Positions 12,371 to 38,300 of a stretch of 40,277 nucleotides of DNA are shown here, piece after piece. The translations under genes and the position numbers were made by a program. Source of the DNA: a virus (taxonomy: Duplodnaviria > Heunggongvirae > Uroviricota > Caudoviricetes); the IMG/VR virus record IMGVR_UViG_2563366843_000005; one strand, written 5' to 3'. Numbering within the stretch: position 1 is the first letter of the stretch; every line of letters begins with the position of its first letter. The notes beneath the pieces are model-generated. The model searched no databases and had not been told where the DNA came from. It saw only the letters and a program-made list of their open reading frames with translations.

Positions 12371-12834
12371 ATAATGATCTCGGATTTTAAGTTATGCTAT
12401 GGTGATAAAGTGCAAGACAGAATTAATTATCTTTGACGAAACTTAATGGGTAATTACTTTGTTTGCTCCCACAAGCGAGTTTTGTACGGCTGTATTGGGG
12501 TAGTAAATGAGCTATACAATCTTAATCATTTGTTAGGTGAGAACTCTTGGTCGCAGATTCAAATACTGAAAATACGTGACAAATTATTATGAGCAAAATG
12601 GTGTATGTCACGTATTTTGAATGATAGGTTAAAAAATAACACCGACTTTCGTAGGTATTACTAATAATAAAGCAGAGTTTTTAGATAGTATCAATGTGCT
12701 TTGTGTATATTGTGGCAAATAATTGGGTTGGGGGTACAATTGTGATTGCTTTTGCATAAAAATTGCGCCTTTATGCATAATGAGATAAAGGAATATCAAA
12801 TAAAATAACGATAGGTCATAACAAAGAGGTTTTT

Positions 12835-13386: not shown

Positions 13387-13395
13387 GGTGAGAGT

Positions 13396-16430: not shown

Positions 16431-16955
16431 TTATTGTTTAACCCATAATAATTCATTGACATTGAATCCCAACTTTTGAGCGGTTCGCACATAGTCTGCT
16501 TTTACTTTATCTGGAATAGTTGGGGTCCTTGCCAGAATCCATAGGTATTCTCTGTTCGGACCACTGACAAGAGCATACTTATACTCATCATCCAGTTTGA
16601 TTACATTATAGCCACCATAGAAGGGGCCAAAAAACGAAACCTTCAACGCTGCAGTTTTAGTATCTCCAGTAAAGTATGCTTTACCTTCGCTCTCGCTCCA
16701 TTTATTTTTCGTTGGATCGTATCCACGGTTAAGTACACGAATCCCTCCGTCGTTCCGTTTTCCATAGGTAGCGCTGACCTGTTCCAGACCACGTTCGAAC
16801 CGGTTCTCGAGGCGAGCTATTTCATACCATTTTCCGAGGTAGCGGTTGGCGTCAAAATTTGTAATCGGCTGCACACCTTTAGGTGGTGTCGGGGCCTTAC
16901 ATGCTATAAGAGTGAAAGAGAGTGCAATGCCAGTCAACACAGGCCATAACTTCAT
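16431..16955 (-). CDS. outer-membrane lipoprotein, bacterial lipocalin Blc homologue
   Basis: 174 aa with signal peptide and lipobox (LIAC); strong recalled similarity to E. coli Blc (NFDANRYLGKWYEIAR, KAYFTG, LKVSFFGPFYGGYNVI, YLWILARTPT). Confidence 0.85.
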   Translation of the reverse strand: MKLWPVLTGIALSFTLIACKAPTPPKGVQPITNFDANRYLGKWYEIARLENRFERGLEQVSATYGKRNDGGIRVLNRGYDPTKNKWSESEGKAYFTGDTKTAALKVSFFGPFYGGYNVIKLDDEYKYALVSGPNREYLWILARTPTIPDKVKADYVRTAQKLGFNVNELLWVKQ

Positions 16956-17147
16956 AATAAATCCTGTACTTTTGATAGTTGAGAGTAAGTATGAAAGATA
17001 GATGATTACGACCGATCACTTAAAGAACTTTCATACTATATTAGGAATAGTCTATAACAGAAAAATTGTCAGTGATGACGCCAGAAAGGCAATTTATTCC
17101 GTGCACTACACAGTTTATGTGTTAATGAATTAGTCAAGGGGGAGAAT

Positions 17148-18107
17148 ATGATAAAAAAACCTGTGATTGGAATCAGCGGTTGTTTGGCCGGCTCTGCTGT
17201 TCGTTTTGATGGTGGTCACAAAAGAGCTGACTTTTTAATGGACAAATTAGTGGAATGGGTAACATTCAGACCAGTATGTCCGGAAATGGCTATAGGGCTG
17301 CCAGTTCCGCGTCCTGCTCTACGTCTTGTGCGCTCGACGCAAGGAAATATACGGATGTGTTTCAGCCACGACCAGAATGAGGATGTGACAGAGAGAATGA
17401 CAGAGTTTAGTCGTTCTTATATGGACAAATTAAAGGATGTATCGGGGTTTGTGGTTTGTGCTAAATCTCCCAGCTGTGGCATGGAGCGCGTGCGTGTCTA
17501 TGATGAAAATGGTAATCGAGGTCGTAAAGATGGAGTGGGACTATTTACGAGCACTTTGATGGAAAAGTTTTCTTGGCTACCGGTTGAAGAGGATGGGCGA
17601 TTACATGATCCAGTGCTTCGTGAGAATTTTGTTGAAAGAGTTTTTGCTTTGCATGAGCTCAATCACCTTTACAAGGAGAAATTATCAAGAAGAGAGTTAT
17701 TAGCTTTTCATAGTCGTTATAAGCTTCAGTTGTTGGCGCATAGTCAGGCAGGCTATAAAGATATGGGACCATTTGTGGCTGCAATACACGAGTGGGCGGA
17801 CCTTGAATCATACTTTGAGGTGTATCGTGATAAGCTGATGGCGATTCTCAGAAAACCTGCATCACGTAAAAATCACACGAATGTGCTGATGCATATACAG
17901 GGGTATTTTAGTAACTACTTAAGTACACGCCAGCGTAAAGAGTTGAGCGAGGTTATACTTAACTATCGTTCTGGCACATTACCTCTTCTTGCGCCGTTGA
18001 CTCTGCTGAAGCATTATCTGGGTGAGTATCCTAATGATTACTTGCTTACACAGAATTACTTCGATCCCTATCCGGACGAACTGGCTCTAAGACTGATGGT
18101 AAATTAA
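17148..18107 (+). CDS. YbgA-like protein (DUF523 TudS-like domain plus DUF1722)
   Basis: 319 aa; N-terminal Cys-containing motifs (GISGCLAG, VCPE, AKSPSCGMERV) resemble the Fe-S-binding DUF523 family; C-terminal region resembles YbgA. Confidence 0.65.
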   Translation: MIKKPVIGISGCLAGSAVRFDGGHKRADFLMDKLVEWVTFRPVCPEMAIGLPVPRPALRLVRSTQGNIRMCFSHDQNEDVTERMTEFSRSYMDKLKDVSGFVVCAKSPSCGMERVRVYDENGNRGRKDGVGLFTSTLMEKFSWLPVEEDGRLHDPVLRENFVERVFALHELNHLYKEKLSRRELLAFHSRYKLQLLAHSQAGYKDMGPFVAAIHEWADLESYFEVYRDKLMAILRKPASRKNHTNVLMHIQGYFSNYLSTRQRKELSEVILNYRSGTLPLLAPLTLLKHYLGEYPNDYLLTQNYFDPYPDELALRLMVN

Positions 18108-18458
18108 TTGTATGCGATATCATCCAAAAGGATGAGTTCCTGCATGCAGGATATTTACAATCGTAAAAACTACACTATGATACCCAGAGTGTCAGTTTGT
18201 ATAAAAACTCTGTTTACGCTGAAGAAACCATTGAGATGCAACTTAAAGTTGGTAAACATGCCAGTCAAAATATATAATATTATGATTCCACGCAGCTATA
18301 TATAATATAACAGATTGGTTTAATAATTTGTCTTTGTGAGTTAAATACATAATTTTATACTTGTGATGCAATGAGATTTTCCTTATTGTTGAACTGGCGA
18401 ATATTGATTTTCCACCTATACTTACCTGGTGTAACCCCAATGATATCAGGTGGATAAT

Positions 18459-19190
18459 ATGCCATACATATGTTCTATCATTTTGGTGTTGAACTCGTTT
18501 GATGTCCGAATTGGTAAAGAAGATATTTTGTTTAAAAAAGGAAGTGCTGTTCTCATTGATTACAATTTAAAAGATTTTTTTTCATCAAATATAGATCATG
18601 TAATGATCGTAGATGTTGAAGAGAAAACAGTTAATGATTTCTTTAAAAGCAACACACTCTCACCTTTTTCTGTAAGAAGGTTTTATCCGGCATACTTGAT
18701 GGTGGAATGTGAAGATTTTTCATTGTTAAAGAACTTGATTGCATGCTTGAATTGTGATGGCAGAACTGTGGATTTTGTTAGAAATCAAATATCACTTGCA
18801 TGTCTTGCTATCTTATCTTCAGAGAAAATAGTGCAAAGTTTTTTATTTGGATGTCTTAATAGTTTAGGAAGTAAAGTTAAGGCTATTATTCACACGGATA
18901 TATCTGCAGCATGGAGACTTTGTGATATATCTTCAAGACTGTATCTGAGTGAAAGTCTGTTAAAAAGAAAATTAAAGCACGAAGGCTTATCATTTAGTAA
19001 GTTAATTCTTGAAGAGCGAATGGTGATGGCGGAAAGGTTATTAAGCTACAATTTATATTCTGTTGGAAAAGTTGCTGAGATATGCGGTTATGAAAACACG
19101 TCATATTTTGTAAGTGTTTTCAGAAGATATTTTGGTGTTCCTCCCCATCAATATTCATCAAGACTTTTTTTAGAAAAAGACATGATGTAA
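18459..19190 (+). CDS. AraC-family transcriptional regulator, AppY/EnvY-like
   Basis: AT-rich ORF with C-terminal AraC HTH (GYENTSYFVSVFRRYFGVPP); N-terminus aligns with AppY; alternative GTG start at 18450. Confidence 0.75.
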   Translation: MPYICSIILVLNSFDVRIGKEDILFKKGSAVLIDYNLKDFFSSNIDHVMIVDVEEKTVNDFFKSNTLSPFSVRRFYPAYLMVECEDFSLLKNLIACLNCDGRTVDFVRNQISLACLAILSSEKIVQSFLFGCLNSLGSKVKAIIHTDISAAWRLCDISSRLYLSESLLKRKLKHEGLSFSKLILEERMVMAERLLSYNLYSVGKVAEICGYENTSYFVSVFRRYFGVPPHQYSSRLFLEKDMM

Positions 19191-22067: not shown

Positions 22068-22231
22068 TCACCATAACTGCTAATCATTCAAACTACTTAA
22101 CCTGTGACAGAGCCAACACGCAGTCTGTCACTGTCAGGAAAGTGGTAAAACTGCAACTCAATTACTGCAATGCCCTCGTAATTAAGTGAATTTACAATAT
22201 CGTCCTGTTCGGAGGGAAGAACGCGGGATGT

Positions 22232-22426
22232 TCATTCTTCATCACTTTTAATTGATGTATATGCTCTCTTTTCTGACGTTAGCCTCCGACGGCAGGCTTC
22301 AATGACCCAGGCTGAGAAATTCCCGGACCCTTTTTGATCAAGAGCGATGTTAATTTGTTCAATCATTTGGTTAGGAAAGCGGATGTTGCGGGTTGTTGTT
22401 CTGCGGGTTCTGTTCTTCGTTGACAT
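22232..22426 (-). CDS. ylcI: ribbon-helix-helix (CopG/Arc-like) small DNA-binding protein, YlcI-like
   Basis: 64 aa; basic N-terminus followed by RHH-like segment (RNIRFPNQMIEQINIAL). Confidence 0.5.
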   Translation of the reverse strand: MSTKNRTRRTTTRNIRFPNQMIEQINIALDQKGSGNFSAWVIEACRRRLTSEKRAYTSIKSDEE

Positions 22427-22625
22427 GAGGTTGCCCCGTATTCAGTGTCGCTGATTTGTATTGTCTGAAGTTGTTTTTACGTTAAGTTGATGCGGATCAA
22501 TTAATACGATACCTGCGTCATAATTGATTATTTGACGTGGTTTGATGGCGTAGATGCACGTTGTGACATGTAGATGATAATTATTATCATTTTGCGGGTC
22601 CTTTCCGGCGATCCGACAGGTTACG

Positions 22626-22637
22626 GGGCGGCGACCT
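22626..22637. other. cos: cosN cohesive-end site (12-nt GGGCGGCGACCT)
   Basis: Exact lambda cohesive-end 12-mer with lambda-like flanks (CATTTTGCGGGTCCTTTCCGGCGATCC upstream, CGCGGTTTTTCGCTATTTATGA downstream), about 220 bp upstream of nu1. Confidence 0.85.
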
Positions 22638-22853
22638 CGCGGTTTTTCGCTATTTATGAGATTTTTTGAGGGGGTGGTTGTTGTTTAATTGTTTGGTATA
22701 TCTAATTGATAAGTAAGGTGAAAATAAAATAAATACAACAACCTTACGATGTGCTTTGATGTCATTAATGTGAAAAAATTAAATGATATCAAATGGTTTT
22801 GTAAAAACACATGGTTGTTGTATCGCTTTTTATCGATGACTTATGGAGAGGAG

Positions 22854-23360
22854 ATGGCCTTTTTATTGAATAAAAGTGATATGGCCTCCTCCATCGGTAT
22901 CTCTGTTCAGGCATTTGATAAATGGGGCGTTCCTCCTGTCGAGCGTCGGGGGAGGGAAGTTTTTTATGACGTTAAAACTGTACTGGAGATAGATCGCGAG
23001 CGGCGACAACACAATCATAGAACACCTGATGACGGGGGCGATCTGGAGGAAAGGCTGCTTCGGGCCAGAGCTGAACTGACAGAAGAACAGGCCGTAGCTC
23101 AAAAACTTAAAAATCAGGTAACCGAAGGTAAGCTCATCGATTCAGACTTCTGCGTTTTCGCCCTCAGCAAGCTGGCGATGGCATTGTCCAGTACGCTTGA
23201 TTCTATTCCGTTATCCATGCAGCGACAGTTCCCGGATTTAACGCCACGTCATCTTGACCATCTGAAAACCCTTATTGCGAAGGGCGCAAATCAGTGTGCG
23301 CGGGCAGGGGATAAATTACCGGATTTGCTGGATGAATATATCAGAGCAACAACTGAATAA
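22854..23360 (+). CDS. nu1: terminase small subunit (Nu1-like)
   Basis: Aligns with lambda Nu1 throughout (N-terminal HTH region; C-terminal LPLSMQRQFPDL...); start set at ATG 22854 after GGAGAGGAG. Confidence 0.8.
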   Translation: MAFLLNKSDMASSIGISVQAFDKWGVPPVERRGREVFYDVKTVLEIDRERRQHNHRTPDDGGDLEERLLRARAELTEEQAVAQKLKNQVTEGKLIDSDFCVFALSKLAMALSSTLDSIPLSMQRQFPDLTPRHLDHLKTLIAKGANQCARAGDKLPDLLDEYIRATTE

Positions 23361-25255
23361 TCTGATGGCTGCCGTTTCGGTTGCGCTGCAGCCTCTGGTC
23401 AGGGTTGTACCGATGACGGCAGTTGAATGGGCTGACCAGTATTATTATCTGCCGAAAGAATCCTCATACGGTGACGGCGAATGGAAAACGCTGCCGTTCC
23501 AGATCGCCATCATGAACAGTATGGGGAATGATCAGGTCCGCACTGTTAATCTGATTAAATCTGCCCGTGTTGGCTATACAAAGATGTTGCTGGGGGTGGT
23601 CGGGTATTTTATTGAGCATAAATCCCGAAACAGTCTGCTTTTTCAGCCCACGGATTCTGCCGCTGAAGATTTTATGAAGTCTCACGTGGAGACGACGATT
23701 AGGGACGTGCCATGCCTGAAAGACCTTTCCCCATGGCTGGGTCGTAAACATCGTGATAATACCCTCACGCTGAAACGCTTTTCATCGGGCGTCGGTTTCT
23801 GGTGCCTGGGCGGCGCTGCCGCCAAAAACTACCGTGAAAAATCCGTGGATGTGGTCTGCTATGACGAACTTTCCTCGTTCGAACCGGATGTTGAAAAAGA
23901 GGGTTCGCCAACCCTGCTGGGGGATAAACGTATTGAGGGCTCTGTATGGCCAAAATCCATTCGCGGCTCGACGCCTAAAATCAAAGGCTCCTGCCAGATC
24001 GAAAAAGCCGCTAACGAGTCGGCACATTTCATGCGTTTTTATGTGCCCTGCCCGCACTGTGGGGAGGCGCAGTATCTGAAATTTGGCGATGAATCCACGC
24101 CTTTTGGCCTTAAATGGGAGAAGGACAGCCCCGAAAGCGTTTTCTACCTCTGTGAACATCATGGCTGCGTGATCCATCAGTCTGAGCTTGACCAGAGCAA
24201 CGGGCGGTGGATCTGTGAAAACACGGGCATGTGGACCCGTGACGGCCTGATGTTTTTCAGCGCCCGGGGTGATGAAATTCCGCCGCCGCGCTCCATCACT
24301 TTCCATATCTGGACGGCGTACAGTCCGTTCACCACCTGGGTACAGATAGTCTATGACTGGCTGGATGCACTGAAAGATCCCAACGGCCTGAAAACCTTTG
24401 TGAACACCACGCTGGGCGAGACCTACGAAGAGGCCGTGGGCGAAAAACTCGATCACCAGGTACTGATTGATAAGGTCGTGCATTACACGGCGGCGGTGCC
24501 AGCCCGGGTGGTTTATCTGACGGCGGGCATTGACTCGCAGCGAAACCGTTTTGAGATGTATGTCTGGGGATGGGCTCCGGGAGAGGAAGCCTTTCTGGTG
24601 GATAAAATCATCATTATGGGACGTCCCGATGAGGAAGAGACGCTGTTACGTGTGGATGCGGCGATCAACAAAAAATACCGCCATGCAGACGGAACCGAAA
24701 TGACCATTTCCCGTGTCTGCTGGGACATCGGGGGTATCGATGGCGAAATCGTTTATCAGAGGTCAAAAAAACACGGTGTTTTCCGGGTGCTGCCGGTAAA
24801 AGGCGCATCTGTCTATGGCAAGCCGGTGATCACCATGCCAAAAACCCGCAATCAGCGGGGCGTGTATCTGTGTGAAGTGGGGACAGACACCGCAAAAGAA
24901 ATTCTCTATGCCCGTATGAAAGCCGAGCCCACGCCTGGAATCCACGTCGTATGCCATCCGTTTTCCTGATGATCCGGAGATTTTTTCGCAGACAGAGGCG
25001 CAGCAACTGGTCGCGGAAGAGCTTGTGGAGAAGTGGGAAAAAGGAAAGATGCGTCTGCTGTGGGATAACAAAAAGCGGCGTAACGAAGCGCTGGACTGCC
25101 TGGTGTATGCCTACGCGGCATTACGTGTGTCCGTGCAACGCTGGCAGCTTGATCTGGCTGTACTGGCAAAATCCCGGGAAGAAGAGACGACCCGGCCAAC
25201 CCTTAAAGAACTGGCAGCGAAGCTGTCCGGAGGAGTGAATGGTTACAGTCGCTGA
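23332..25255 (+). pseudogene. A: terminase large subunit gpA, interrupted by a +1 frameshift in a T4 run at 24961-24964
   Basis: N-terminal 545 aa (23332-24969) and the ORF 25025-25255 both align with lambda gpA; removing one T restores ...CHPFPDDPEIFSQTEAQQL... matching lambda ...HFPNNPDIFDLTEAQQL... Confidence 0.7.
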
Positions 25256-25445
25256 ACTGCAGGCGCTGCGTCAGGCGCGCCTTGATTTATTAACCGGTAA
25301 ACGGGTGGTGTCTGTCCAGAAAGATGGTCGCAGAATTGAATATACGGCGGCTTCTCTGGATGAGCTTAACCGGGCGATCAATGATGCGGAGTCGGTACTG
25401 GGGACAACCCGACGTCGCCGTCGTCCGCTGGGAGTGAGGTTATGA
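25239..25445 (+). CDS. W: head-tail joining protein gpW
   Basis: 68 aa, matches lambda W (LTGKRVVSVQKDGRR). Confidence 0.85.
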   Translation: MVTVAELQALRQARLDLLTGKRVVSVQKDGRRIEYTAASLDELNRAINDAESVLGTTRRRRRPLGVRL

Positions 25446-27034
25446 AACGAACGCCTGTCCTGATTGATGTGAACGGTGTTCCGCTTCGTGAGAGTCTCAG
25501 CTACAACGGTGGCGGCGCAGGATTTGGCGGGCAAATGGCGGAGTGGTTGCCACCGGCGCAGAGTGCCGATGCGGCCCTGCTGCCCGCGTTGCGTCTGGGG
25601 AATGCCCGGGCAGATGATCTAGTGCGCAATAACGGAATAGCGGCTAATGCGGTTGCCCTGCATAAGGATCACATTGTCGGGCATATGTTTCTGATCAGCT
25701 ACCGTCCGAACTGGCGCTGGCTGGGGATGCGGGAGACCGCAGCAAAAAGCTTTGTCGATGAGGTGGAGGCGGCCTGGTCGGAATACGCCGAAGGGATGTT
25801 TGGCGAGATCGACGTGGAAGGAAAACGCACGTTCACGGAATTTATCCGTGAAGGTGTGGGCGTTCATGCGTTTAACGGCGAAATCTTTGTGCAGCCGGTC
25901 TGGGATACGGAAACCACGCAGTTATTCCGTACGCGTTTTAAAGCTGTGAGTCCGAAACGGGTGGACACGCCTGGACACGGTATGGGGAACCGTTTTCTGC
26001 GGGCCGGTGTGGAGGTCGATCGATATGGCCGTGCCGTCGCGTACCATATCTGTGAGGATGATTTTCCGTTCTCTGGTAGTGGACGATGGGAACGGATCCC
26101 GCGTGAACTTCCCACCGGGCGTCCGGCCATGCTGCATATTTTCGAGCCGGTGGAGGACGGGCAGACCCGTGGGGCTAATCAGTTTTACAGCGTCATGGAA
26201 CGGCTGAAGATGCTCGATTCCCTGCAGGCAACACAGCTTCAGTCGGCCATAGTGAAGGCGATGTATGCAGCGACGATTGAAAGTGAACTTGATACCGAAA
26301 AGGCCTTTGAATATATCGCCGGCGCGCCACAGGAGCAGAAGGATAATCCGCTTATTAATATTCTGGAGAAGTTCTCCAGCTGGTATGACACGAATAACGT
26401 GACACTGGGCGGAGTCAAAATTCCGCACCTTTTCCCTGGTGATGATCTGAAACTACAGACTGCGCAGGATTCAGACAATGGATTTTCTGCACTTGAACAG
26501 GCGCTGCTGCGGTATATCGCCGCCGGTCTTGGCGTTTCCTACGAACAGTTGTCCCGTGATTACTCGAAGGTCAGTTACTCAAGTGCCCGCGCCTCCGCCA
26601 ATGAGTCGTGGCGCTATTTTATGGGGCGGCGAAAATTTATTGCGGCCCGGCTGGCCACGCAGATGTTTTCCTGCTGGCTGGAAGAGGCACTTCTTCGGGG
26701 GATTATTCGTCCGCCACGGGCACGTTTTGATTTTTATCAGGCGCGATCAGCCTGGTCACGGGCAGAGTGGATTGGTGCCGGAAGAATGGCCATTGACGGG
26801 CTCAAGGAAGTCCAGGAATCAGTGATGCGCATTGAGGCCGGACTGAGCACGTATGAGAAAGAGCTGGCGCTGATGGGCGAGGATTATCAGGACATTTTCC
26901 GCCAGCAGGTCAGGGAATCTGCAGAGCGGCAAAAAGCCGGACTCTCACGTCCGGTGTGGATATCGCAGGCGTATCAGCAGCAGATAGCGGAGAGTCGCAG
27001 GCCGGAAGAGGAGACAACACCACGTGAGACGTAA
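25442..27034 (+). CDS. B: portal protein gpB
   Basis: 530 aa, lambda B-like; ATGA overlap with W. Confidence 0.95.
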   Translation: MKRTPVLIDVNGVPLRESLSYNGGGAGFGGQMAEWLPPAQSADAALLPALRLGNARADDLVRNNGIAANAVALHKDHIVGHMFLISYRPNWRWLGMRETAAKSFVDEVEAAWSEYAEGMFGEIDVEGKRTFTEFIREGVGVHAFNGEIFVQPVWDTETTQLFRTRFKAVSPKRVDTPGHGMGNRFLRAGVEVDRYGRAVAYHICEDDFPFSGSGRWERIPRELPTGRPAMLHIFEPVEDGQTRGANQFYSVMERLKMLDSLQATQLQSAIVKAMYAATIESELDTEKAFEYIAGAPQEQKDNPLINILEKFSSWYDTNNVTLGGVKIPHLFPGDDLKLQTAQDSDNGFSALEQALLRYIAAGLGVSYEQLSRDYSKVSYSSARASANESWRYFMGRRKFIAARLATQMFSCWLEEALLRGIIRPPRARFDFYQARSAWSRAEWIGAGRMAIDGLKEVQESVMRIEAGLSTYEKELALMGEDYQDIFRQQVRESAERQKAGLSRPVWISQAYQQQIAESRRPEEETTPRET

Positions 27035-28529
27035 TCTTTCACACATTATTGCCGCAGCATTCAATGAACCGCTGCTTCTGGAGCCCGCCTATGCGCGGGT
27101 TTTCTTTTGCGCGCTCGGGCGCGAGATGGGGGCAGCAAGTCTTTCGGTACCACAACAACAGGTACAGCTTGATGCTCCCGGAATGCTGGCTGAAACGGAC
27201 GAGTATATGGCCGGAGGTAAACGACCGGCCCGTGTTTACCGGGTGGTGAACGGTATTGCTGTACTGCCGGTGACCGGCACGCTGGTGCACCGGCTGGGTG
27301 GTATGCGGCCATTTTCCGGAATGACAGGCTATGACGGCATTGTCGCCTGTCTTCAGCAGGCAATGGCGGATAGCCAGGTGCGGGGCGTACTGCTGGACAT
27401 TGACAGTCCGGGCGGGCAGGCCGCCGGCGCGTTTGACTGCGCTGACATGATTTACCGCCTCCGTCAGCAGAAGCCGGTCTGGGCACTGTGCAATGACACG
27501 GCCTGTTCTGCAGCCATGCTGCTGGCGTCGGCCTGCTCCCGACGGCTGGTTACCCAGACATCCCGTATCGGCTCCATTGGCGTGATGATGAGCCATGTCA
27601 GCTATGCCGGTCATCTGGCGCAGGCCGGTGTGGATATCACGCTGATTTACTCAGGTGCGCACAAGGTGGATGGCAATCAGTTTGAAGCGTTGCCGGCAGA
27701 GGTTCGCCAGGACATGCAGCAGCGGATTGATGCGGCGCGCCGGATGTTTGCCGAAAAAGTGGCGATGTATACCGGTCTGTCTGTTGATGCCGTCACGGGA
27801 ACAGAGGCTGCCGTTTTTGAAGGTCAGTCCGGCATTGAGGCCGGGCTGGCGGATGAATTAATCAATGCGTCGGATGCCATCAGTGTGATGGCCACGGCGC
27901 TGAACAGTAATGTCAGAGGAGGCACTATGCCGCAATTAACTGCAACGGAAGCCGCCGCGCAGGAGAACCAGCGAGTGATGGGGATCCTGACATGCCAGGA
28001 AGCGAAAGGACGTGAACAGCTTGCCACGATGCTGGCAGGACAACAGGGCATGAGCGTTGAACAGGCCCGGGCGATTCTGTGCGCGGCGGCACCGCAGCAG
28101 CCGGTGGCATCCACGCAGAGTGAAGCCGATCGCATTATGGCGTGTGAAGAAGCGAACGGTCGTGAACAACTGGCGGCAACGCTGGCGGCGATGCCAGAGA
28201 TGACGGTGGAAAAAGCCCGCCCGATCCTGGCTGCTTCACCGCAGGCGGATGCCGGACCATCACTCCGTGATCAGATCATGGCACTGGATGAGGCAAAAGG
28301 GGCTGAGGCGCAGGCTGAACAGCTGGCTGCCTGCCCGGGAATGACAGTGGAGAGCGCCCGGGCTGTGCTGGCTGCGGGATCAGGTAAGGCAGAACCGGTC
28401 TCTGCATCCACAACCGCCATGTTTGAACATTTCATGGCGAACCATTCACCGGCAGCGGTACAGGGTGGCGTGCCACAGACGTCAGCAGACGGTGATGCGG
28501 ACGTGAAAATGCTCATGGCCATGCCATGA
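27024..28529 (+). CDS. C: capsid maturation protease gpC (S49/ClpP-like) with nested in-frame scaffolding protein Nu3 region
   Basis: 501 aa, GTG start; N-terminal two-thirds aligns with lambda C; C-terminal part carries three Nu3-like repeat units. Confidence 0.9.
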   Translation: MRRNLSHIIAAAFNEPLLLEPAYARVFFCALGREMGAASLSVPQQQVQLDAPGMLAETDEYMAGGKRPARVYRVVNGIAVLPVTGTLVHRLGGMRPFSGMTGYDGIVACLQQAMADSQVRGVLLDIDSPGGQAAGAFDCADMIYRLRQQKPVWALCNDTACSAAMLLASACSRRLVTQTSRIGSIGVMMSHVSYAGHLAQAGVDITLIYSGAHKVDGNQFEALPAEVRQDMQQRIDAARRMFAEKVAMYTGLSVDAVTGTEAAVFEGQSGIEAGLADELINASDAISVMATALNSNVRGGTMPQLTATEAAAQENQRVMGILTCQEAKGREQLATMLAGQQGMSVEQARAILCAAAPQQPVASTQSEADRIMACEEANGREQLAATLAAMPEMTVEKARPILAASPQADAGPSLRDQIMALDEAKGAEAQAEQLAACPGMTVESARAVLAAGSGKAEPVSASTTAMFEHFMANHSPAAVQGGVPQTSADGDADVKMLMAMP

Positions 28530-28565
28530 AGTCAGTGCTGACCATCAATAGGAGGTTTTTACAAT

Positions 28566-28913
28566 ATGGTGACGAAAACCATCACTGAACAGCGTGCGGA
28601 AGTACGTATTTTTGCCGGTAATGATCCGGCTCATACCGCCACAGGCAGCAGCGGGATTTCCTCGCCAACACCGGCACTGACGCCCCTGATGCTGGATGAA
28701 GCCACCGGGAAACTGGTGGTCTGGGACGGACAGAAAGCCGGTAGTGCGGTTGGCATACTGGTACTGCCGCTTGAAGGTACAGAGACGGCGCTGACGTATT
28801 ACAAGTCGGGAACCTTTGCGACGGAGGCAATCCACTGGCCTGAAAGTGTGGATGAACACAAAAAGGCCAACGCCTTTGCCGGCAGTGCCCTGAGTCACGC
28901 GGCGCTGCCGTAA
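28566..28913 (+). CDS. D: head decoration protein gpD
   Basis: 115 aa, lambda D-like (NDPAHTAT, TPLMLD, YKSGTF). Confidence 0.9.
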   Translation: MVTKTITEQRAEVRIFAGNDPAHTATGSSGISSPTPALTPLMLDEATGKLVVWDGQKAGSAVGILVLPLEGTETALTYYKSGTFATEAIHWPESVDEHKKANAFAGSALSHAALP

Positions 28914-28921
28914 CACGTTAT

Positions 28922-28941
28922 CAGGCCACCGCGGTGGCCTG
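28922..28941 (+). other. 20-bp perfect palindrome/hairpin between D and E
   Basis: CAGGCCACCGCGGTGGCCTG is self-complementary; intercistronic position. Confidence 0.4.
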
Positions 28942-28970
28942 ACTGATTTCTGAATGAAAGGAACTGATTT

Positions 28971-29999
28971 ATGGGATTGTTTACGACCCGCCAGTTACTC
29001 GGTTATACCGAACAAAAAGTTAAATTTCGTGCGCTGTTTCTGGAGCTGTTTTTCCGCCGTACGGTGAATTTCCATACCGAAGAGGTGATGCTGGACAAAA
29101 TTACCGGAAAAACGCCGGTGGCGGCCTATGTCTCCCCGGTTGTTGAAGGAAAAGTGCTGCGTCATCGTGGTGGTGAAACCCGCGTGTTGCGTCCGGGCTA
29201 CGTCAAGCCGAAACACGAATTTAATTACCAGCAGGCGGTTGAGCGCCTTCCTGGTGAAGATCCATCTCAACTGAACGATCCGGCTTACCGCCGTCTGCGT
29301 ATCATTACCGATAACCTCAAACAGGAAGAGCACGCGATTGTCCAGGTGGAAGAAATGCAGGCGGTAAATGCTGTGTTGTATGGCAAATACACCATGGAAG
29401 GAGACCAGTTCGAGAAAATTGAGGTCGATTTTGGCAGGTCGACGAAGAATAACATCACACAGGGTAGCGGTAAGGAATGGTCAAAACAGGATCGTGACAC
29501 GTTCGATCCTACACATGATATTGACCTTTACTGCGACCAGGCCAGCGGTCTTGTGAATATTGCCATCATGGACGGTACCGTCTGGCGTCTGCTGAATGGT
29601 TTTAAGCTGTTTCGCGAAAAACTGGATACCCGTCGCGGTTCAAATTCACAACTCGAAACGGCAGTGAAAGATCTGGGCGCAGTGGTGTCCTTCAAGGGGT
29701 ATTACGGCGATCTGGCTATTGTTGTGGCGAAAACGTCTTATGTGGCAGAGGACGGTATCGAAAAACGTTATCTTCCAGATGGCATGCTGGTCCTGGGGAA
29801 TACTGCTGCAGATGGGATCCGTTGTTACGGAGCCATTCAGGATGCGCAGGCGTTTTCCGAAGGTGTGGTGGCTTCTTCCCGTTATCCGAAACACTGGCTG
29901 ACGGTGGGGGATCCTGCCCGTGAATTTACCATGACGCAGTCCGCACCGCTGATGGTGTTGCCGGACCCGGATGAGTTTGTGGTGGTACAGGTGAAATAA
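28971..29999 (+). CDS. E: major capsid protein gpE
   Basis: 342 aa, lambda E-like throughout. Confidence 0.95.
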   Translation: MGLFTTRQLLGYTEQKVKFRALFLELFFRRTVNFHTEEVMLDKITGKTPVAAYVSPVVEGKVLRHRGGETRVLRPGYVKPKHEFNYQQAVERLPGEDPSQLNDPAYRRLRIITDNLKQEEHAIVQVEEMQAVNAVLYGKYTMEGDQFEKIEVDFGRSTKNNITQGSGKEWSKQDRDTFDPTHDIDLYCDQASGLVNIAIMDGTVWRLLNGFKLFREKLDTRRGSNSQLETAVKDLGAVVSFKGYYGDLAIVVAKTSYVAEDGIEKRYLPDGMLVLGNTAADGIRCYGAIQDAQAFSEGVVASSRYPKHWLTVGDPAREFTMTQSAPLMVLPDPDEFVVVQVK

Positions 30000-30007
30000 T
30001 CCGTGAG

Positions 30008-30036
30008 CGGGGGCGAAATGCCCCCGTGTCTTTTTT
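30008..30036 (+). terminator. intrinsic terminator-like hairpin after E
   Basis: Stem CGGGGGC/GCCCCCG, loop GAAAT, followed by TCTTTTTT. Confidence 0.55.
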
Positions 30037-30050
30037 CACAGGGGGCTGAT

Positions 30051-30425
30051 ATGGCAACGAAAGAGCAAAATCTGAAGCGGCTTGATGAACTGGCCCTGAT
30101 TCTGGGGCGTGAGCCGGATATATCCGGGAGTGCCGCAGAGATAGCGCAGCGGGTGGCGGAATGGGAAGAGGAAATGCAGTCATCCGGCGATGATGTACAG
30201 GTTATGAATATGGATATCCGGGAGCAGGAAACCGCGGCTCATGATGTTCGTGAGGAAACATCCGGCGCGTTAACGCGCATCAGAGTTCTGACCTGCCTCC
30301 ATCTCTGTGGCATTGATGGTGAAACGGGGGAATCCGTTGAGCTTGCGGATGTTGGTCGGGTGATTCTGATTATGTCCTCAGATGCAAAAACACACGTTGA
30401 TGGCGGAATGGCTGTTTATGCGTGA
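30051..30425 (+). CDS. FI: DNA-packaging protein gpFI
   Basis: Acidic protein in lambda FI position; start set at MATKEQNLKRLDEL. Confidence 0.75.
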   Translation: MATKEQNLKRLDELALILGREPDISGSAAEIAQRVAEWEEEMQSSGDDVQVMNMDIREQETAAHDVREETSGALTRIRVLTCLHLCGIDGETGESVELADVGRVILIMSSDAKTHVDGGMAVYA

Positions 30426-30771
30426 TTTTCAGAATGCCTTTGATGCCGCCCTTGCCGGGGTGGACAGTACGATTGTTGAAGTGATGGGCATCAGTGCGCA
30501 GTTCACCTCCGGTGCACAGCGTGGCGGCGAGGTTCATGGCGTTTTTGACGATCCGGAGTCGCTGGGTTTTGCCAGTAGTGGGATCCGTATTGAAGGAAGC
30601 AACCCGTCATTATTTGTGCTTACGGATACGGTTTGTGCTGTACGGCGTGGTGACACGCTGACCATTAACGGCGAGATATTCTGGGTGGATCGTGTTTCTC
30701 CGGATGACGGAGGGAGTTGTTATCTCTGGCTCAACCGGGGGCAACCACCTGCCGTTAACCGTCGCCGCTGA
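30418..30771 (+). CDS. FII: head-tail connector protein gpFII
   Basis: MRDFQNAFDAALAG... aligns with lambda FII; overlaps FI end. Confidence 0.85.
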   Translation: MRDFQNAFDAALAGVDSTIVEVMGISAQFTSGAQRGGEVHGVFDDPESLGFASSGIRIEGSNPSLFVLTDTVCAVRRGDTLTINGEIFWVDRVSPDDGGSCYLWLNRGQPPAVNRRR

Positions 30772-30781
30772 AAGGGGATGT

Positions 30782-31360
30782 ATGGCCATAAAAGGTCTTG
30801 AGCAGGCCGTTGAAAACCTCAGTCGTATCAGCAAAACGGCGGTGCCGGGTGCCGCCGCAATGGCCATTAACCGCGTTGCTTCATCCGCGATATCGCAGTC
30901 GGCGTCACAGGTTGCCCGTGAGACAAAGGTACGCCGGAAACTGGTAAAGGAAAGGGCTAGGCTGAAAAGGGCCACGGTCAAAAATCCGCAGGCCAGAATC
31001 AAAGTTAACCGGGGGGATTTGCCCGTAATCAAGCTGGGTAATGCGCGGGTTGTCCTGTCCCGACGCAGGCGTCGTAAAAAGGGGCAGCGTTCAGCCCTGA
31101 AAGGTGGCGGCAGTGTGCTTGTGGTGGGAAACCGTCGTATTCCCGGCGCGTTTATTCAGCAACTGAAAAATGGCCGCTGGCATGTCATGCAGCGTGTGGC
31201 GGGGAAAAACCGTTACCCCATTGATGTGGTGAAAATCCCGATGGCGGTGCCGCTTACCACGGCGTTTAAACAGAATATTGAGCGGATACGGCGTGAACGT
31301 CTTCCGAAAGAGCTGGGCTATGCGCTGCAGCATCAACTGAGAATGGTAATAAAGCGATGA
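30782..31360 (+). CDS. Z: minor tail protein gpZ
   Basis: 192 aa from MAIKGLEQAVENLSRISKTAVPG..., near-identical to lambda Z. Confidence 0.9.
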   Translation: MAIKGLEQAVENLSRISKTAVPGAAAMAINRVASSAISQSASQVARETKVRRKLVKERARLKRATVKNPQARIKVNRGDLPVIKLGNARVVLSRRRRRKKGQRSALKGGGSVLVVGNRRIPGAFIQQLKNGRWHVMQRVAGKNRYPIDVVKIPMAVPLTTAFKQNIERIRRERLPKELGYALQHQLRMVIKR

Positions 31361-31752
31361 AACATACTGAACTCCGAGCAGCCGTACTGGATGCACTGGA
31401 GAAGCATGACACCGGGGCGACGCTTTTTGATGGTCGCCCCGCTGTTTTTGATGAGGAAGATTTTCCGGCAATTGCCGTTTATCTCACCAGCGCTGAATAC
31501 ACGGGCGAAGAGCTGGACAGCGATACCTGGCAGGCGGAGCTGCATATTGAAGTTTTCCTGCCTGCTCAGGTGCCGGATTCAGAGCTGGATTCGTGGATGG
31601 AGTCCCGGATTTATCCGGTGATGAGCGATATCCCGGCACTGTCAGATTTGATCACCAGTATGGTGGCCAGTGGCTATGACTACCGACGCGACGATGATGC
31701 GGGCCTGTGGAGTTCAGCCGATCTGACTTATGTCATTACCTATGAAATGTGA
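31357..31752 (+). CDS. U: tail terminator protein gpU
   Basis: 131 aa, near-identical to lambda U. Confidence 0.9.
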
Positions 31753-31759
31753 GGACGAT

Positions 31760-32500
31760 ATGCCTGTACCAAATCCTACAATGCCGGTGAAAGGGGCCGG
31801 GACCACACTGTGGGTTTATAACGGGAGCGGCGACCCTTATGCAAACCCGCTTTCAGACAATGACTGGTCGCGTCTGGCAAAGGTTAAAGACCTGACGCCC
31901 GGCGAACTGACCGCTGAGTCCTATGACGACAGTTATCTCGATGATGAAGATGCGGACTGGACCGCGACCGGACAGGGGCAGAAATCTGCCGGAGATACCA
32001 GCTTCACGCTGGCGTGGATGCCCGGAGAGCAGGGGCAGCAGGCGCTGCTGGCGTGGTTTAATGAAGGTGATACCCGTGCCTATAAAATCCGCTTCCCGAA
32101 CGGCACGGTCGATGTGTTCCGCGGCTGGGTCAGCAGTATCGGTAAGGCGGTGACGGCGAAGGACGTGATCACCCGCACGGTGAAAGTCACCAACGTAGGA
32201 CGTCCGTCGATGGCAGAAGATCGCAGCACGGTAACAGCGGCAACCGGTATGACCGTGACGCCAGCCAGTGCTTCCGTAGTGAAAGGGCAGAGCACCACGC
32301 TGACCGTGGCATTCCAGCCGGAAGGTGTAACCGACAAGAGCTTCCGTGCGGTGTCTGCGGATAAAACAAAAGCCACCGTGTCGGTCAGTGGTATGACCAT
32401 CACCGTGAACGGCGTTGCTGCAGGCAAGGTCAACATTCCGGTTGTATCCGGTAATGGTGAGTTTGCTGCGGTTGCAGAAATCACCGTCACCGCCAGTTAA
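31760..32500 (+). CDS. V: major tail tube protein gpV
   Basis: 246 aa from [20 protein letters not shown]..., lambda V-like including C-terminal Ig-like domain. Confidence 0.9.
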
Positions 32501-32515
32501 TCCGGAGAGTCAGCG

Positions 32516-32929
32516 ATGTTCCTGAAAACCGAATCATTTGAATATAACGGCGTGACCGTCACGCTTTCTGAACTGTCAGCCCTGCAGCGTATTGAGCATC
32601 TCGCCCTGATGAAACAGCAGGCAGAATCCGACAGTAACCGGAAGTTTACTGTGGAAGACGTCATCAGAACCGGCGCTTTTGTGGTGGCGATGTCTCTGTG
32701 GCATAACCATCCGAAGAAGACGCAGATGCCGTCCATGAATGAAGCCGTTAAACAGATTGAGCAGGAAGTGCTTACCACCTGGCCCACAGAGGCAATTTCT
32801 CATGCTGAAAACGTGGTGTACCGGCTGTCCGGTATGTATGAGTTTGTGGTGAATAATGCCCCTGAACAGGCAGAGGACGCCGGGTCTGCAGAGCCTGTTT
32901 CTGCGGGAAAGTGTTCGACGGTGAGCTGA
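32516..32929 (+). CDS. G: tail assembly chaperone gpG
   Basis: 137 aa, lambda G-like; ends just after the slippery heptamer. Confidence 0.85.
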   Translation: MFLKTESFEYNGVTVTLSELSALQRIEHLALMKQQAESDSNRKFTVEDVIRTGAFVVAMSLWHNHPKKTQMPSMNEAVKQIEQEVLTTWPTEAISHAENVVYRLSGMYEFVVNNAPEQAEDAGSAEPVSAGKCSTVS

Positions 32930-33345
32930 GTTTTGCCCTGAAACTGGCGCGTGAGATGGGGCGACCCGACTGGCGCGCCATGCTTGCCGGGATGTCATCC
33001 ACGGAGTATGCCGACTGGCACCGTTTTTACAGTACCCATTATTTTCATGATGTTCTGCTGGATATGCACTTTTCCGGGCTGACGTACACCGTGCTCAGCC
33101 TGTTTTTCAGCGATCCGGAGATGCATCCGCTGGATTTCAGTCTGCTGAACCGGTGTGAGGCTGACGAAGAGCCTGAAGATGATGTGCTGATGCAGAAAGC
33201 GGCAGGGCTTGCCGGAGGCGTCCGCTTTGGTCCGGACGGGAATAAAGTTATCCCCGCTTCCCCGGATGTGGCGGACATGACGGAGGATGACGTAATGCTG
33301 ATGACAGTATCAGAAGGGATCGCAGGAGGAGTCCGGTATGGCTGA
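32516..33345 (+). CDS. GT: tail assembly protein gpGT, produced by programmed -1 ribosomal frameshift at GGGAAAG (32905-32911)
   Basis: Slippery heptamer GGGAAAG near the end of G; -1 frame continues as the lambda T-like ORF 32911-33345 ending just after the H start. Confidence 0.8.
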
Positions 33346-35899
33346 ACCGGTAGGCGATCTGGTCGTTGATTTAAGTCTGGATGCGGCCAGATTTGACGAG
33401 CAGATGGCCAGAGTCAGGCGTCATTTTTCCGGTACGGAAAGTGATGCGAAAAAAACAGCGGCAGTCGTTGAACAGTCGATGAACCGGCAGGCGCTGGCTG
33501 CACAGAAAGCGGGGATTTCCGTCGGGCAGTATAAAGCCGCCATGCGTATGCTGCCTGCACAGTTCACCGACGTGGCCACGCAGCTTGCAGGCGGGCAAAG
33601 CCCGTGGCTGATCCTGCTGCAACAGGGTGGTCAGGTTAAGGACTCCTTCGGCGGGATGATCCCCATGTTCCGGGGGCTTGCCGGTGCGATCACCCTGCCG
33701 ATGGTCGGGGCCACCTCGCTGGCGGTGGCGACCGGTGCGCTGGCGTATGCCTGGTATCAGGGTAACTCAACCCTGTCCGATTTCAACAAAACGCTGGTCC
33801 TTTCCGGTAATCAGTCGGGTCTGACGGCAGATCGTATGCTGGTCCTGTCCAGAGCCGGGCAGGCGGCAGGGCTGACGTTTAACCAGACCAGCGAGTCACT
33901 CAGTGCACTGGTTAAGGCGGGGGTAAGCGGTGAGGCTCAGATTGCGTCCATCAGCCAGAGTGTGGCGCGTTTCTCTTCTGCATCCGGCGTGGAGGTGGAC
34001 AAGGTCGCTGAAGCCTTCGGGAAGCTGACCACTGACCCGACGTCGGGGCTGACGGCGATGGCGCGCCAGTTCCATAACGTGACGGCGGAGCAGATTGCGT
34101 ATGTTGCTCAGTTGCAGCGTTCCGGCGATGAAGCCGGGGCATTGCAGGCGGCGAACGAGGCAGCAACGAAAGGGTTTGATGACCAGACCCGACGCCTGAA
34201 AGAGAACATGGGCACGCTGGAAACCTGGGCAGACAGGACAGCACGGGCATTCAAATCCATGTGGGATGCGGTGCTGGATATTGGTCGTCCTGATACCGCT
34301 CAGGAGATGCTGATTAAGGCAGAGGCTGCGTTTAAGAAAGCGGACGACATCTGGAATCTGCGCAAGGATGATTATTTTGTTAACGATGAAGCGCGGGCGC
34401 GTTACTGGGATGATCGTGAAAAGGCCCGTCTTGCGCTTGAAGCCGCCCGAAAGAAGGCTGAACAGCAGAGTCAACAGGACAAAAATGCGCAGCAGCAGAG
34501 CGATACCGAAGCATCACGGCTGAAATATACCGAAGAGGCGCAGAAGGCTTACGAACGGCTGCAGACACCGCTGGAGAAATATACCGCCCGTCAGGAAGAA
34601 CTGAACAAGGCACTGAAAGACGGGAAAATCCTGCAGGCGGATTACAACACACTGATGGCGGCGGCGAAAAAGGATTATGAAGCGACGCTGAAAAAGCCGA
34701 AACAGTCCGGCGTGAAGGTGTCTGCGGGCGATCGTCAGGAAGACAGTGCTCATGCTGCCCTGCTGACGCTTCAGGCAGAACTCCGGACGCTGGAGAAGCA
34801 TGCCGGAGCGAATGAGAAAATCAGCCAGCAGCGCCGGGATTTGTGGAAGGCAGAAAGTCAGTTCGCGGTACTGGAGGAGGCGGCACAACGTCGCCAGCTG
34901 TCCGCACAGGAGAAATCCCTGCTGGCGCATAAAGATGAGACGCTGGAGTACAAACGCCAGCTGGCTGCACTTGGCGACAAGGTTACGTATCAGGAGCGCC
35001 TGAACGCGCTGGCGCAGCAGGCGGATAAATTCGCACAGCAGCAACGGGCAAAACGGGCCGCCATTGATGCGAAAAGCCGGGGGCTGACTGACCGGCAGGC
35101 AGAACGGGAAGCCACGGAACAGCGCCTGAAGGAACAGTATGGCGATAATCCGCTGGCGCTGAATAACGTCATGTCAGAGCAGAAAAAGACCTGGGCGGCT
35201 GAAGACCAGCTTCGCGGGAGCTGGATGGCAGGCCTGAAGTCCGGCTGGAGTGAGTGGGAAGAGAGCGCCACGGACAGTATGTCGCAGGTAAAAAGTGCAG
35301 CCACGCAGACCTTTGATGGTATTGCACAGAATATGGCAGCGATGCTGACCGGCAGTGAGCAGAACTGGCGCAGCTTCACCCGTTCCGTGCTGTCCATGAT
35401 GACAGAAATTCTGCTTAAGCAGGCAATGGTGGGGATTGTCGGGAGTATCGGCAGCGCCATTGGCGGGGCTGTTGGTGGCGGCGCATCCGCATCAGGCGGT
35501 ACAGCCATTCAGGCCGCTGCGGCGAAATTCCATTTTGCAACCGGAGGATTTACGGGAACCGGCGGCAAATATGAGCCAGCGGGGATTGTTCACCGTGGTG
35601 AATTTGTCTTCACGAAGGAGGCAACCAGCCGGATTGGCGTGGGGAATCTCTACCGGCTGATGCGCGGCTATGCCACCGGTGGTTATGTCGGTACACCGGG
35701 CAGTCTGGCTGACAGCCGGTCGCAGGTGTCCGGGACGTTTGAGCAGAATAACCATGTGGTGATTAACAACGACGGCACGAACGGGCAGATAGGTCCGGCT
35801 GCTCTGAAGGCGGTGTATGACATGGCCCGCAAGGGTGCCCGTGATGAAATTCAGACACAGATGCGTGATGGTGGCCTGTTCTCCGGAGGTGGACGATGA
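33338..35899 (+). CDS. H: tail tape-measure protein gpH
   Basis: 853 aa, same length as lambda H; coiled-coil Ala/Gln-rich. Confidence 0.95.
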   Translation: MAEPVGDLVVDLSLDAARFDEQMARVRRHFSGTESDAKKTAAVVEQSMNRQALAAQKAGISVGQYKAAMRMLPAQFTDVATQLAGGQSPWLILLQQGGQVKDSFGGMIPMFRGLAGAITLPMVGATSLAVATGALAYAWYQGNSTLSDFNKTLVLSGNQSGLTADRMLVLSRAGQAAGLTFNQTSESLSALVKAGVSGEAQIASISQSVARFSSASGVEVDKVAEAFGKLTTDPTSGLTAMARQFHNVTAEQIAYVAQLQRSGDEAGALQAANEAATKGFDDQTRRLKENMGTLETWADRTARAFKSMWDAVLDIGRPDTAQEMLIKAEAAFKKADDIWNLRKDDYFVNDEARARYWDDREKARLALEAARKKAEQQSQQDKNAQQQSDTEASRLKYTEEAQKAYERLQTPLEKYTARQEELNKALKDGKILQADYNTLMAAAKKDYEATLKKPKQSGVKVSAGDRQEDSAHAALLTLQAELRTLEKHAGANEKISQQRRDLWKAESQFAVLEEAAQRRQLSAQEKSLLAHKDETLEYKRQLAALGDKVTYQERLNALAQQADKFAQQQRAKRAAIDAKSRGLTDRQAEREATEQRLKEQYGDNPLALNNVMSEQKKTWAAEDQLRGSWMAGLKSGWSEWEESATDSMSQVKSAATQTFDGIAQNMAAMLTGSEQNWRSFTRSVLSMMTEILLKQAMVGIVGSIGSAIGGAVGGGASASGGTAIQAAAAKFHFATGGFTGTGGKYEPAGIVHRGEFVFTKEATSRIGVGNLYRLMRGYATGGYVGTPGSLADSRSQVSGTFEQNNHVVINNDGTNGQIGPAALKAVYDMARKGARDEIQTQMRDGGLFSGGGR

Positions 35900-36923: not shown

Positions 36924-36927
36924 TCCC

Positions 36928-38240: not shown

Positions 38241-38300
38241 TGCAAAATGTTTTATGTGAAACCGCCTCCGGGCGGTTTTATCGTTTATGGATCATGACGA

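What the first reader, a model, noticed from the sequence alone, without database searches (positions are those of the whole stretch)
24931..25030. Terminase large-subunit gene A is split by a +1 frameshift in a T4 homopolymer
The A reading frame stops at 24967-24969, and the remaining C-terminal segment, still recognisably lambda gpA, continues in another frame (25025-25255). Deleting one T from TTTT at 24961-24964 restores a continuous lambda-like sequence. Either the prophage is packaging-defective (early decay of an otherwise intact element) or this is a homopolymer sequencing error. A programmed shift is not known for lambda A.
Basis: seen in the sequence. Interest (0 to 1): 0.5.

Follow-up and report, generated by a model that had tools for sequence, protein, structure and literature searches.

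The report
Prophage terminase gene broken by 5-bp deletion
The DNA-packaging enzyme gene of an otherwise complete lambda/phage-21-like prophage in E. coli KTE147 is broken by a genuine 5-base deletion, not by an extra T in a T-run, which is ordinary prophage decay that probably leaves the phage unable to fill its heads with DNA.

Summary
The split of the terminase large-subunit gene is real. The reading frame from ATG 23332 stops at TGA 24967-24969, and the rest of the protein continues in the +1 phase to 25255. TTTT at 24961-24964 is the wild-type sequence in phage 21, PhiR12_1 and the closest E. coli prophages. The actual lesion is a 5-nt deletion (CGGAT) between 24937 and 24938. Re-inserting CGGAT gives a 642-aa protein that is 641/642 identical to the intact E. 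coli Z247 homologue. Deleting a T gives only 631/642. The window is E. coli KTE147 (GCA_000352705.1). An independent assembly of raw reads (Logan, SRR640030) shows the same junction, so this is not a homopolymer or assembly error. I did not find the deletion in any other strain searched. It is the only frame-breaking indel in the 18 kb of late genes that are collinear with an intact relative. The product (535 native + 10 aberrant residues) lacks the last quarter of the nuclease domain and the C-terminal tail. In lambda that tail docks terminase on the portal, and losing just 5 residues of it is lethal. Verdict: a recent, ordinary inactivating mutation with no sign of recoding. Low interest.

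The parts
22626..22672 (+). Phage-21-type cosN region (GGGCGGCGACCT... cohesive-end sequence) upstream of the terminase genes
   Evidence: 43/47 identical to bases 1-47 of the phage 21 genome (OL657228), whose bases 1-12 are annotated as the cohesive end
22854..23360 (+). Terminase small subunit (Nu1-type), intact
   Evidence: Pfam PF07471 Phage_Nu1, E=1e-20. Corresponds to the annotated small-subunit CDS of Z247. Called as a 168-aa gene in GCA_000352705.1
23332..24969 (+). 5' piece of the terminase large-subunit gene: 545 codons (535 native + 10 out-of-frame, GIHVVCHPFS) ending at TGA 24967-24969
   Evidence: Pfam GpA_ATPase at residues 49-293 and GpA_nuclease at 323-536, covering only profile positions 3-229 of 294. 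Deposited as ELG87576.1 'large terminase [E. coli KTE147]'
24937..24938 (+). Deletion junction: 5 nt (CGGAT) present in intact relatives are missing between these two bases. This is the actual lesion.
   Evidence: Alignments with phage 21, PhiR12_1 and E. coli Z247. Re-insertion gives 641/642 identity to the Z247 protein
24938..25255 (+). 3' remainder of the large-subunit gene in the +1 phase (105 codons, ESTSYAIRFPDD...GGVNGYSR*). It encodes the end of the nuclease domain and the C-terminal tail.
   Evidence: Pfam GpA_nuclease profile positions 237-287, E=2.9e-11. Base-for-base identical to Z247 over this stretch
24961..24964 (+). It is wild-type sequence (codons CGT TTT CCT = R F P in the intact gene), not the lesion.
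   Evidence: Same TTTT in phage 21, PhiR12_1, Z247 and 14EC047
25025..25255 (+). Orphan 76-codon ORF (GTG start) that gene callers annotate within the 3' remainder. Nothing here shows it is expressed.
   Evidence: Called as a separate gene in GCA_000352705.1 and the Logan contig. The same 76-aa sequence is on record on 115 contigs
25239..25445 (+). gpW-type head-tail joining gene, intact. It overlaps the natural end of gene A.
   Evidence: Pfam PF02831 gpW. Synteny with phage 21, lambda and Z247
25442..27034 (+). Portal protein (gpB-type), intact. In lambda the portal is the docking partner of the terminase C-terminus that is lost here.
   Evidence: Pfam PF05136 Phage_portal_2, 530 aa. Portal contact of the TerL C-terminus in lambda: PMC4856287

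Best explanation
A genuine 5-bp deletion (CGGAT, between window 24937 and 24938) has inactivated the terminase large-subunit gene. The gene is a phage-21 gene-2 / lambda A homologue in a DLP12-like lambdoid prophage of E. coli KTE147. Translation from ATG 23332 reads 535 native residues and then 10 out-of-frame residues, and stops at TGA 24967. The product keeps the N-terminal region, the whole ATPase domain and about three quarters of the nuclease domain. It lacks the last quarter of the nuclease domain and the C-terminal tail, 107 residues in all. Inferred consequence: terminase cannot dock on the portal and probably cannot cut cos, so no DNA-filled heads are made from this prophage alone. 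All other late genes, cos and the early genes look intact. The mutation is therefore probably recent, and the prophage should still be rescuable in trans by a compatible terminase or by recombination with a related prophage. The frame break itself has no function.
For: Shown directly:
- The stop and the second frame are as described.
- Intact relatives have TTTT and the extra CGGAT.
- Re-inserting CGGAT gives 641/642 identity to the intact Z247 protein, against 631/642 for deleting a T.
- The window is 100% identical to GCA_000352705.1 and to a Logan contig built from SRR640030 reads and seen in 5 samples, junction included.
- The 5-nt gap is the only frame-breaking indel in window 22211-40277 compared with Z247 at 98.5% identity.
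- The nuclease profile is cut at position 229 of 294, with positions 237-287 on the orphan piece.
- The exact truncated protein is on record only for KTE147. The junction 42-mer has 0 hits in the species-representative genomes and in the metagenome contigs. No complete E. coli genome matches better than 99.1%, which is the gap alone.

From the literature: lambda Aam42 removes only the last 5 residues of gpA, abolishes prohead binding, is lethal and is rescued about 2000-fold in trans (PMC4856287).
Against: - Read pile-ups were not inspected. The Logan contig probably comes from the same strain's reads, so it rules out an assembler artefact but is not an independent DNA preparation.
- The loss of function is inferred by homology to lambda gpA (65% identity) and was not tested for this phage.
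- It is unknown whether the deletion arose in nature or during laboratory culture.
- It is unknown whether KTE147 carries another compatible terminase.
Confidence: 0.9

Rival explanations
1. Sequencing or assembly error: the strain's gene is really intact and the 5 missing bases (or an extra T) are an artefact of the draft assembly.
For: Error-type splits of this same gene do exist in other assemblies. They show multiple 1-nt losses at A6, G5, A7 and T6 runs in L004, L008, L010, L015 and L017, often with neighbouring genes also fragmented. The source is a draft scaffold.
Against: The T4 run is unchanged from wild type. The lesion is a 5-nt loss in non-homopolymer, non-repeat sequence, and it is the only frame-breaking difference in 18 kb. 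An independent assembler working from the raw reads gives the same sequence over 12.9 kb, with the contig seen in 5 run samples.
Confidence: 0.04
2. Leaky expression: occasional +1 ribosomal slippage of Phe-tRNA on CCG-UUU-U (24961-24964), inside the 47-nt overlap of the two frames, yields a little full-length protein with GIHVVCHP in place of ADESTSYAIR. That could be enough for low-level packaging.
For: Any +1 shift between 24920 and 24966 fuses the two pieces. UUU_U allows re-pairing in the +1 frame (read from the sequence). The replaced stretch is one of the least conserved between lambda and phage 21.
Against: By inspection, there is no stimulatory context: the next codon is UCC, not a stop or a rare codon, and no Shine-Dalgarno-like element lies just upstream. 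The frame break is found only in this one strain, so it cannot be a selected recoding signal. The fused protein would carry 8 wrong and 2 missing residues inside the nuclease domain.
Confidence: 0.03
3. Two-piece enzyme: the 545-aa product and a separately translated C-terminal peptide (from GTG 25025 or ATG 25049) reassemble into an active terminase.
For: Gene callers annotate the 76-codon ORF, and it carries the end of the nuclease profile.
Against: Residues 536-566 of the intact protein (ADESTSYAIRFPDD...EEL) would be in neither piece. No conserved split architecture exists: every other split allele examined breaks at a different place and looks like damage or error. Intact relatives are single polypeptides.
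Confidence: 0.01

Closest known systems
Phage 21 gene 2 (terminase large subunit; OL657228 / M81255)
   Same: Closest classical phage homologue. After repair the proteins are 588/642 identical, and the DNA is about 94% identical over the region phage 21 covers. The gene order is the same (cos, small subunit, large subunit, W-type, portal), and the cosN sequence is of the same type.
   Different: The phage 21 gene is one continuous 642-codon ORF. The window's copy lacks CGGAT and is split. The first ~176 nt of the query (the end of the small-subunit gene and the start of the large-subunit gene) match PhiR12-type phages rather than phage 21.
Lambda gpA (NP_040581) and its amber mutant Aam42
   Same: Same two-domain family (GpA_ATPase + GpA_nuclease) and same position in the genome. 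Aam42 is a C-terminal truncation that cannot bind proheads, is lethal and is complementable in trans.
   Different: Only 417/642 identical. Aam42 removes 5 residues and leaves nicking intact. The deletion here removes 107 residues, including part of the nuclease domain, so cos cutting is probably lost as well (inference).
Intact Qin/21-like prophage of E. coli Z247 (NZ_CP021207, 3916797-3919203 region)
   Same: 98.5% identical over window 22211-40277. It is identical over 24700-25260 apart from the 5-nt gap, and the large subunit differs at a single residue (V89G) once the gap is repaired.
   Different: Its large-subunit gene is intact (642 aa, WP_086353190.1). Its early region is unrelated to the window's DLP12-like left arm.
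Lambda-type G/GT -1 programmed frameshift in the tail assembly chaperone
   Same: This is the known programmed frameshift of lambdoid late operons. The window has its GGGAAAG heptamer at 32905-32911, at the overlap of the G and T ORFs.
   Different: It lies in a different gene and shifts in the other direction (-1). It is a feature of the lambda family (from my own knowledge), whereas the gene A frame break is a damage event found only in this strain.

Membership tests
Lambda-type terminase large subunit (gpA family: PF05876 + PF20454) | N-terminal GpA_ATPase domain | tested here: met
   PF05876 E=5.6e-55, residues 49-293, profile positions 5-247 of 247 in the 545-aa product
Lambda-type terminase large subunit (gpA family: PF05876 + PF20454) | Complete GpA_nuclease domain on the same polypeptide | tested here: not met
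   The 5' product covers only profile positions 3-229 of 294. Positions 237-287 are on the out-of-frame 3' piece. The intact Z247 protein covers 3-286.
Lambda-type terminase large subunit (gpA family: PF05876 + PF20454) | Single ORF of about 641-642 codons ending with the C-terminal prohead-binding tail | tested here: not met
   The ORF ends after 545 codons. Phage 21, PhiR12_1 and Z247 have 642 codons and lambda has 641. By descent it is a member, but it is a pseudogene.
Lambda-type terminase large subunit (gpA family: PF05876 + PF20454) | Gene order cos - small subunit - large subunit - W - portal | tested here: met
   cosN 22626-22672, Nu1 22854-23360, A 23332-25255, W 25239-25445, portal 25442-27034
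Programmed +1 ribosomal frameshift (prfB type) | The frame break is conserved among homologues | tested here: not met
   Phage 21, PhiR12_1, lambda and Z247 each have one continuous ORF. No identical junction was found in 5426 complete E. coli genomes, the species-representative genomes or the metagenome contigs.
Programmed +1 ribosomal frameshift (prfB type) | Shift-prone codon followed by a stop or slowly decoded codon, with an upstream Shine-Dalgarno-like stimulator | tested here: not met
   Read from the sequence: CAT CCG TTT TCC TGA. UUU_U could re-pair in the +1 frame, but the next codon is UCC and no AGGAGG-like element precedes it. The codon before the stop (UCC) cannot re-pair in the +1 frame.
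Homopolymer sequencing error | Run length differs from that in intact relatives | tested here: not met
   TTTT is the same in the window and in four intact or near-intact relatives. The difference is a 5-nt block in mixed sequence.
Homopolymer sequencing error | Not reproduced by independent treatment of the reads | tested here: not met
   The Logan assembly of SRR640030 reproduces the junction, with 100% identity over 12,916 nt and the contig seen in 5 samples. Read-level pile-ups could not be inspected.

The most novel reading that the evidence does not exclude
The broken gene is leaky. Spontaneous +1 slippage at CCG-UUU-U (24961-24964), inside the 47-nt overlap of the two frames, would make a small amount of near-full-length terminase. 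The prophage would then still package DNA at low frequency, so an apparent pseudogene would be kept partly functional by ribosomal frameshifting.
Probability: 0.03. Interest if true: 0.3.

Novelty: already known. Interest (0 to 1): 0.08.

Why it matters
The finding has little wider significance. It is a single-strain inactivating deletion in a prophage packaging gene, the kind of event by which prophages become defective. Two practical points follow. First, annotation of KTE147 should mark ELG87576.1 and the 76-aa ORF as one pseudogene. Second, a frame break should not be placed at the nearest homopolymer without comparing close relatives. Here the run that "repairs" the frame is wild-type, and the real lesion lies 24 nt upstream. 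Because everything else looks intact, the prophage is a possible natural example of a helper-dependent but otherwise complete lambdoid element. That is of modest interest for studies of prophage induction.

Tried and rejected
- An exact 42-nt junction search found no match in genome contigs or metagenome contigs, so there is no second lineage with the deletion.
- A PDB sequence search with the intact homologue found no solved relative by sequence. I could not place the missing segment on a solved structure. I did not run structure prediction, because the Pfam profile coordinates already show what is missing.
- Literature searches for lambda gpA E586 and for the leucine-zipper endonuclease residues returned nothing relevant. 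Sippy & Feiss 1992 (PMC206162) is not held. My recollection that the Glu of the RRNEALD motif (residue 587 here) equals lambda E586, an endonuclease residue, is therefore memory only and is not used as evidence.
- No paper in the library mentions KTE147.
- I considered slipped-strand deletion between direct repeats and rejected it as the mechanism. By inspection, the deleted CGGAT is not flanked by repeats that would yield this exact deletion.

Full report
**1. What the sequence shows**

- The terminase large-subunit frame starts at ATG 23332. The mechanical ORF begins at an upstream in-frame TTG at 23275. It ends at TGA 24967-24969, which is followed at once by a second in-frame TGA.
- The phase that is +1 relative to it is open from 24920, after a TGA at 24917-24919, and runs to a stop at 25253-25255. 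It reads ...LESTSYAIRFPDDPEIFSQTEAQQLVAEELVEKWEKGKMRLLWDNKKRRNEALDC....
- The two frames therefore overlap by about 47 nt, and sequence alone cannot say where in that overlap the lesion lies.

**2. Where the lesion really is**

- A megablast search against phage records found about 94% identical genes in phage 21 and in PhiR12-type phages. There the matching stretch is 1966 nt against 1961 nt in the window.
- The alignment shows TTTT in every sequence. It also shows a 5-nt gap in the window 24 nt upstream of the T-run.
- Among 5426 complete E. coli genomes, 1881 carry this segment. The best hits are 99.1% identical over 566 nt, which is the 5-nt gap and nothing else.
- The best hit, strain Z247, reads GCCCACGCCTG-CGGAT-GAATCCACG where the window reads GCCCACGCCTG-GAATCCACG.
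- Re-inserting CGGAT gives a 642-codon ORF whose product is identical to the Z247 protein at 641 of 642 positions (only V89G differs). Deleting one T also closes the frame, but it replaces ADESTSYAIR with GIHVVCHP, giving 631/642.
- The T-run is therefore wild-type (CGT TTT CCT = R F P). The lesion is a deletion of CGGAT between 24937 and 24938.
- After repair the protein is 588/642 identical to phage 21 gp2 and 417/642 to lambda gpA. It is a phage-21-type gene rather than lambda A in the strict sense.

**3. Is it real?**

- An exact-protein look-up shows the 545-aa product is encoded on scaffold KB733135.1 of GCA_000352705.1 and on a 14-kb Logan contig assembled from run SRR640030. That contig is seen in 5 samples.
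- Both are 100% identical to the window, over 21,638 nt and 12,916 nt respectively, junction included.
- The deposited protein is ELG87576.1, "large terminase [Escherichia coli KTE147]", so the window comes from E. coli KTE147.
- Two different assemblers agree on a 5-nt loss in mixed, non-repetitive sequence. This rules out an assembly artefact and makes a read error very unlikely. I could not inspect pile-ups, and the Logan runs probably come from the same strain.
- Other assemblies in which the same 76-aa orphan ORF was called show a different pattern. Several have multiple single-base losses at A6, G5, A7 or T6 runs, often with fragmented neighbouring genes (L004, L008, L010, L015, L017). 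Others show a 1-nt insertion (L014), a rearrangement (L011), or a large deletion plus T4-to-T3 at this very T-run with a compensating insertion downstream (L016). In L009 and L012 the indels cancel out, so their early stops are probably substitutions, which I did not check.
- So homopolymer-type splits of this gene do occur elsewhere, but that is not what this window contains.

**4. How widespread is it?**

- The junction 42-mer has no match in the species-representative genomes or in the metagenome contigs.
- No complete E. coli genome carries it.
- The exact truncated protein is on record for only one NCBI contig.
- As far as these collections show, the deletion is found only in KTE147.

**5. 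Context**

- Window 22211-40277 is collinear with the intact Z247 prophage at 98.5% identity.
- Apart from the 5-nt gap, the indels in that stretch are harmless. Two are 1-nt intergenic differences (22216 and 30774), one is an in-frame 9-nt divergent patch in the G-type chaperone gene, and two are a compensating pair in the J-type gene.
- Nu1, W, portal, S49 protease/scaffold, D, E, FI, FII, Z, U, V, G, T and H are called as full-length genes.
- A phage-21-type cosN lies at 22626-22672.
- The left arm is a different, DLP12-like mosaic. It has integrase, exo/bet-type recombination genes, an S24 repressor, O and P, a Q-type antiterminator, holin, lysozyme, Rz and Bor.
- The prophage therefore looks complete except for this one gene. 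That fits a recent mutation.

**6. Consequence (inferred)**

- In the intact protein, Pfam places GpA_ATPase at residues 49-293 and GpA_nuclease at 323-601.
- The truncated product keeps the nuclease profile only to position 229 of 294. Positions 237-287 lie on the orphan piece.
- The last 107 residues, including the extreme C-terminus, are lost.
- In lambda, the amber mutation Aam42 removes only the last 5 residues of gpA. That abolishes docking on the portal and gives a very low yield, and coinfection with A+ phage raises the yield about 2000-fold. The C-terminus is the prohead-binding domain (PMC4856287).
- By homology, the KTE147 prophage should be unable to package its DNA on its own, and it probably cannot cut cos properly either. 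It should remain rescuable in trans by a compatible terminase. In complete E. coli genomes that carry this segment, the median is two copies per genome, so a helper in the same cell is plausible. This was not tested.

**7. Recoding?**

- Nothing supports a programmed shift. The frame break is not conserved.
- The only re-pairing site in the overlap (UUU_U) is followed by an ordinary UCC codon, and no Shine-Dalgarno-like element lies just upstream.
- A shifted product would not restore the ancestral sequence.
- The window does contain the expected lambdoid programmed frameshift site, GGGAAAG at 32905-32911, at the overlap of the G and T ORFs.

**8. Verdict**

- This is an ordinary, single-strain pseudogenising deletion in a prophage. 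It is an already known kind of event and of low interest.

Noticed in passing
window 32905-32911 (G ORF 32516-32929, T-frame ORF 32911-33345): The lambda-type -1 slippery heptamer GGGAAAG sits at the overlap of the tail assembly chaperone G and T ORFs. This is the expected programmed frameshift of lambdoid tail operons and looks intact.
   Followed up: partly
window 5644-6507 (-), next to the S24 repressor gene at 6574-7323 (-): A 287-aa protein with DUF7946 + DUF7947 domains sits in the immunity region. It has only a weak PADLOC hit (PDC-S42, E=1.5e-4). It may be a prophage-borne defence or exclusion gene, but its function is unknown.
   Followed up: partly
window 10844-14193 and 16431-19190: There are two clusters of non-phage cargo genes, as in DLP12. 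The first has a large serine recombinase (ybcK-type, 508 aa), a PBP-family protein and an AraC-type regulator. The second, lying between the Q-type antiterminator and the holin, has a lipocalin, a DUF523/DUF1722 protein and a second AraC-type regulator.
   Followed up: partly
window 1-22210 versus 22211-40277: The prophage is a mosaic. Its late region is 98.5% identical to a Qin/21-like prophage of strain Z247. Its early region instead resembles DLP12-like prophages of other strains, with at most 83% coverage in any complete E. coli genome. The similarity to Z247 begins near 22211, just upstream of cos.
   Followed up: partly
L004 (NZ_CP024155, 14EC047), L008, L010, L015, L017: In these public assemblies the same terminase gene has several 1-nt losses, each at a homopolymer run (G5, A6, A7, T6). 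Neighbouring genes are fragmented too in L010, L015 and L017. These are probably long-read sequencing errors annotated as frameshifts or split genes.
   Followed up: partly
L016 (GCA_002109685.1, ADIR01000007.1) 945-2731: This is a remnant terminase gene with an internal deletion of about 900 nt. It has TTT instead of TTTT at the very run named in the finding, and a 1-nt insertion 50 nt downstream that compensates. It is an older, more decayed copy of the same gene.
   Followed up: no
window 24967-24972: The out-of-frame reading ends in two consecutive TGA codons (TGATGA). This is a chance by-product of the GAT GAT (Asp-Asp) codons of the native frame.
   Followed up: yes
window 32629-32636: A short, highly divergent patch in the G-type chaperone gene is 9 nt shorter than in Z247 and stays in frame. 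It looks like a local mosaic exchange rather than damage.
   Followed up: no
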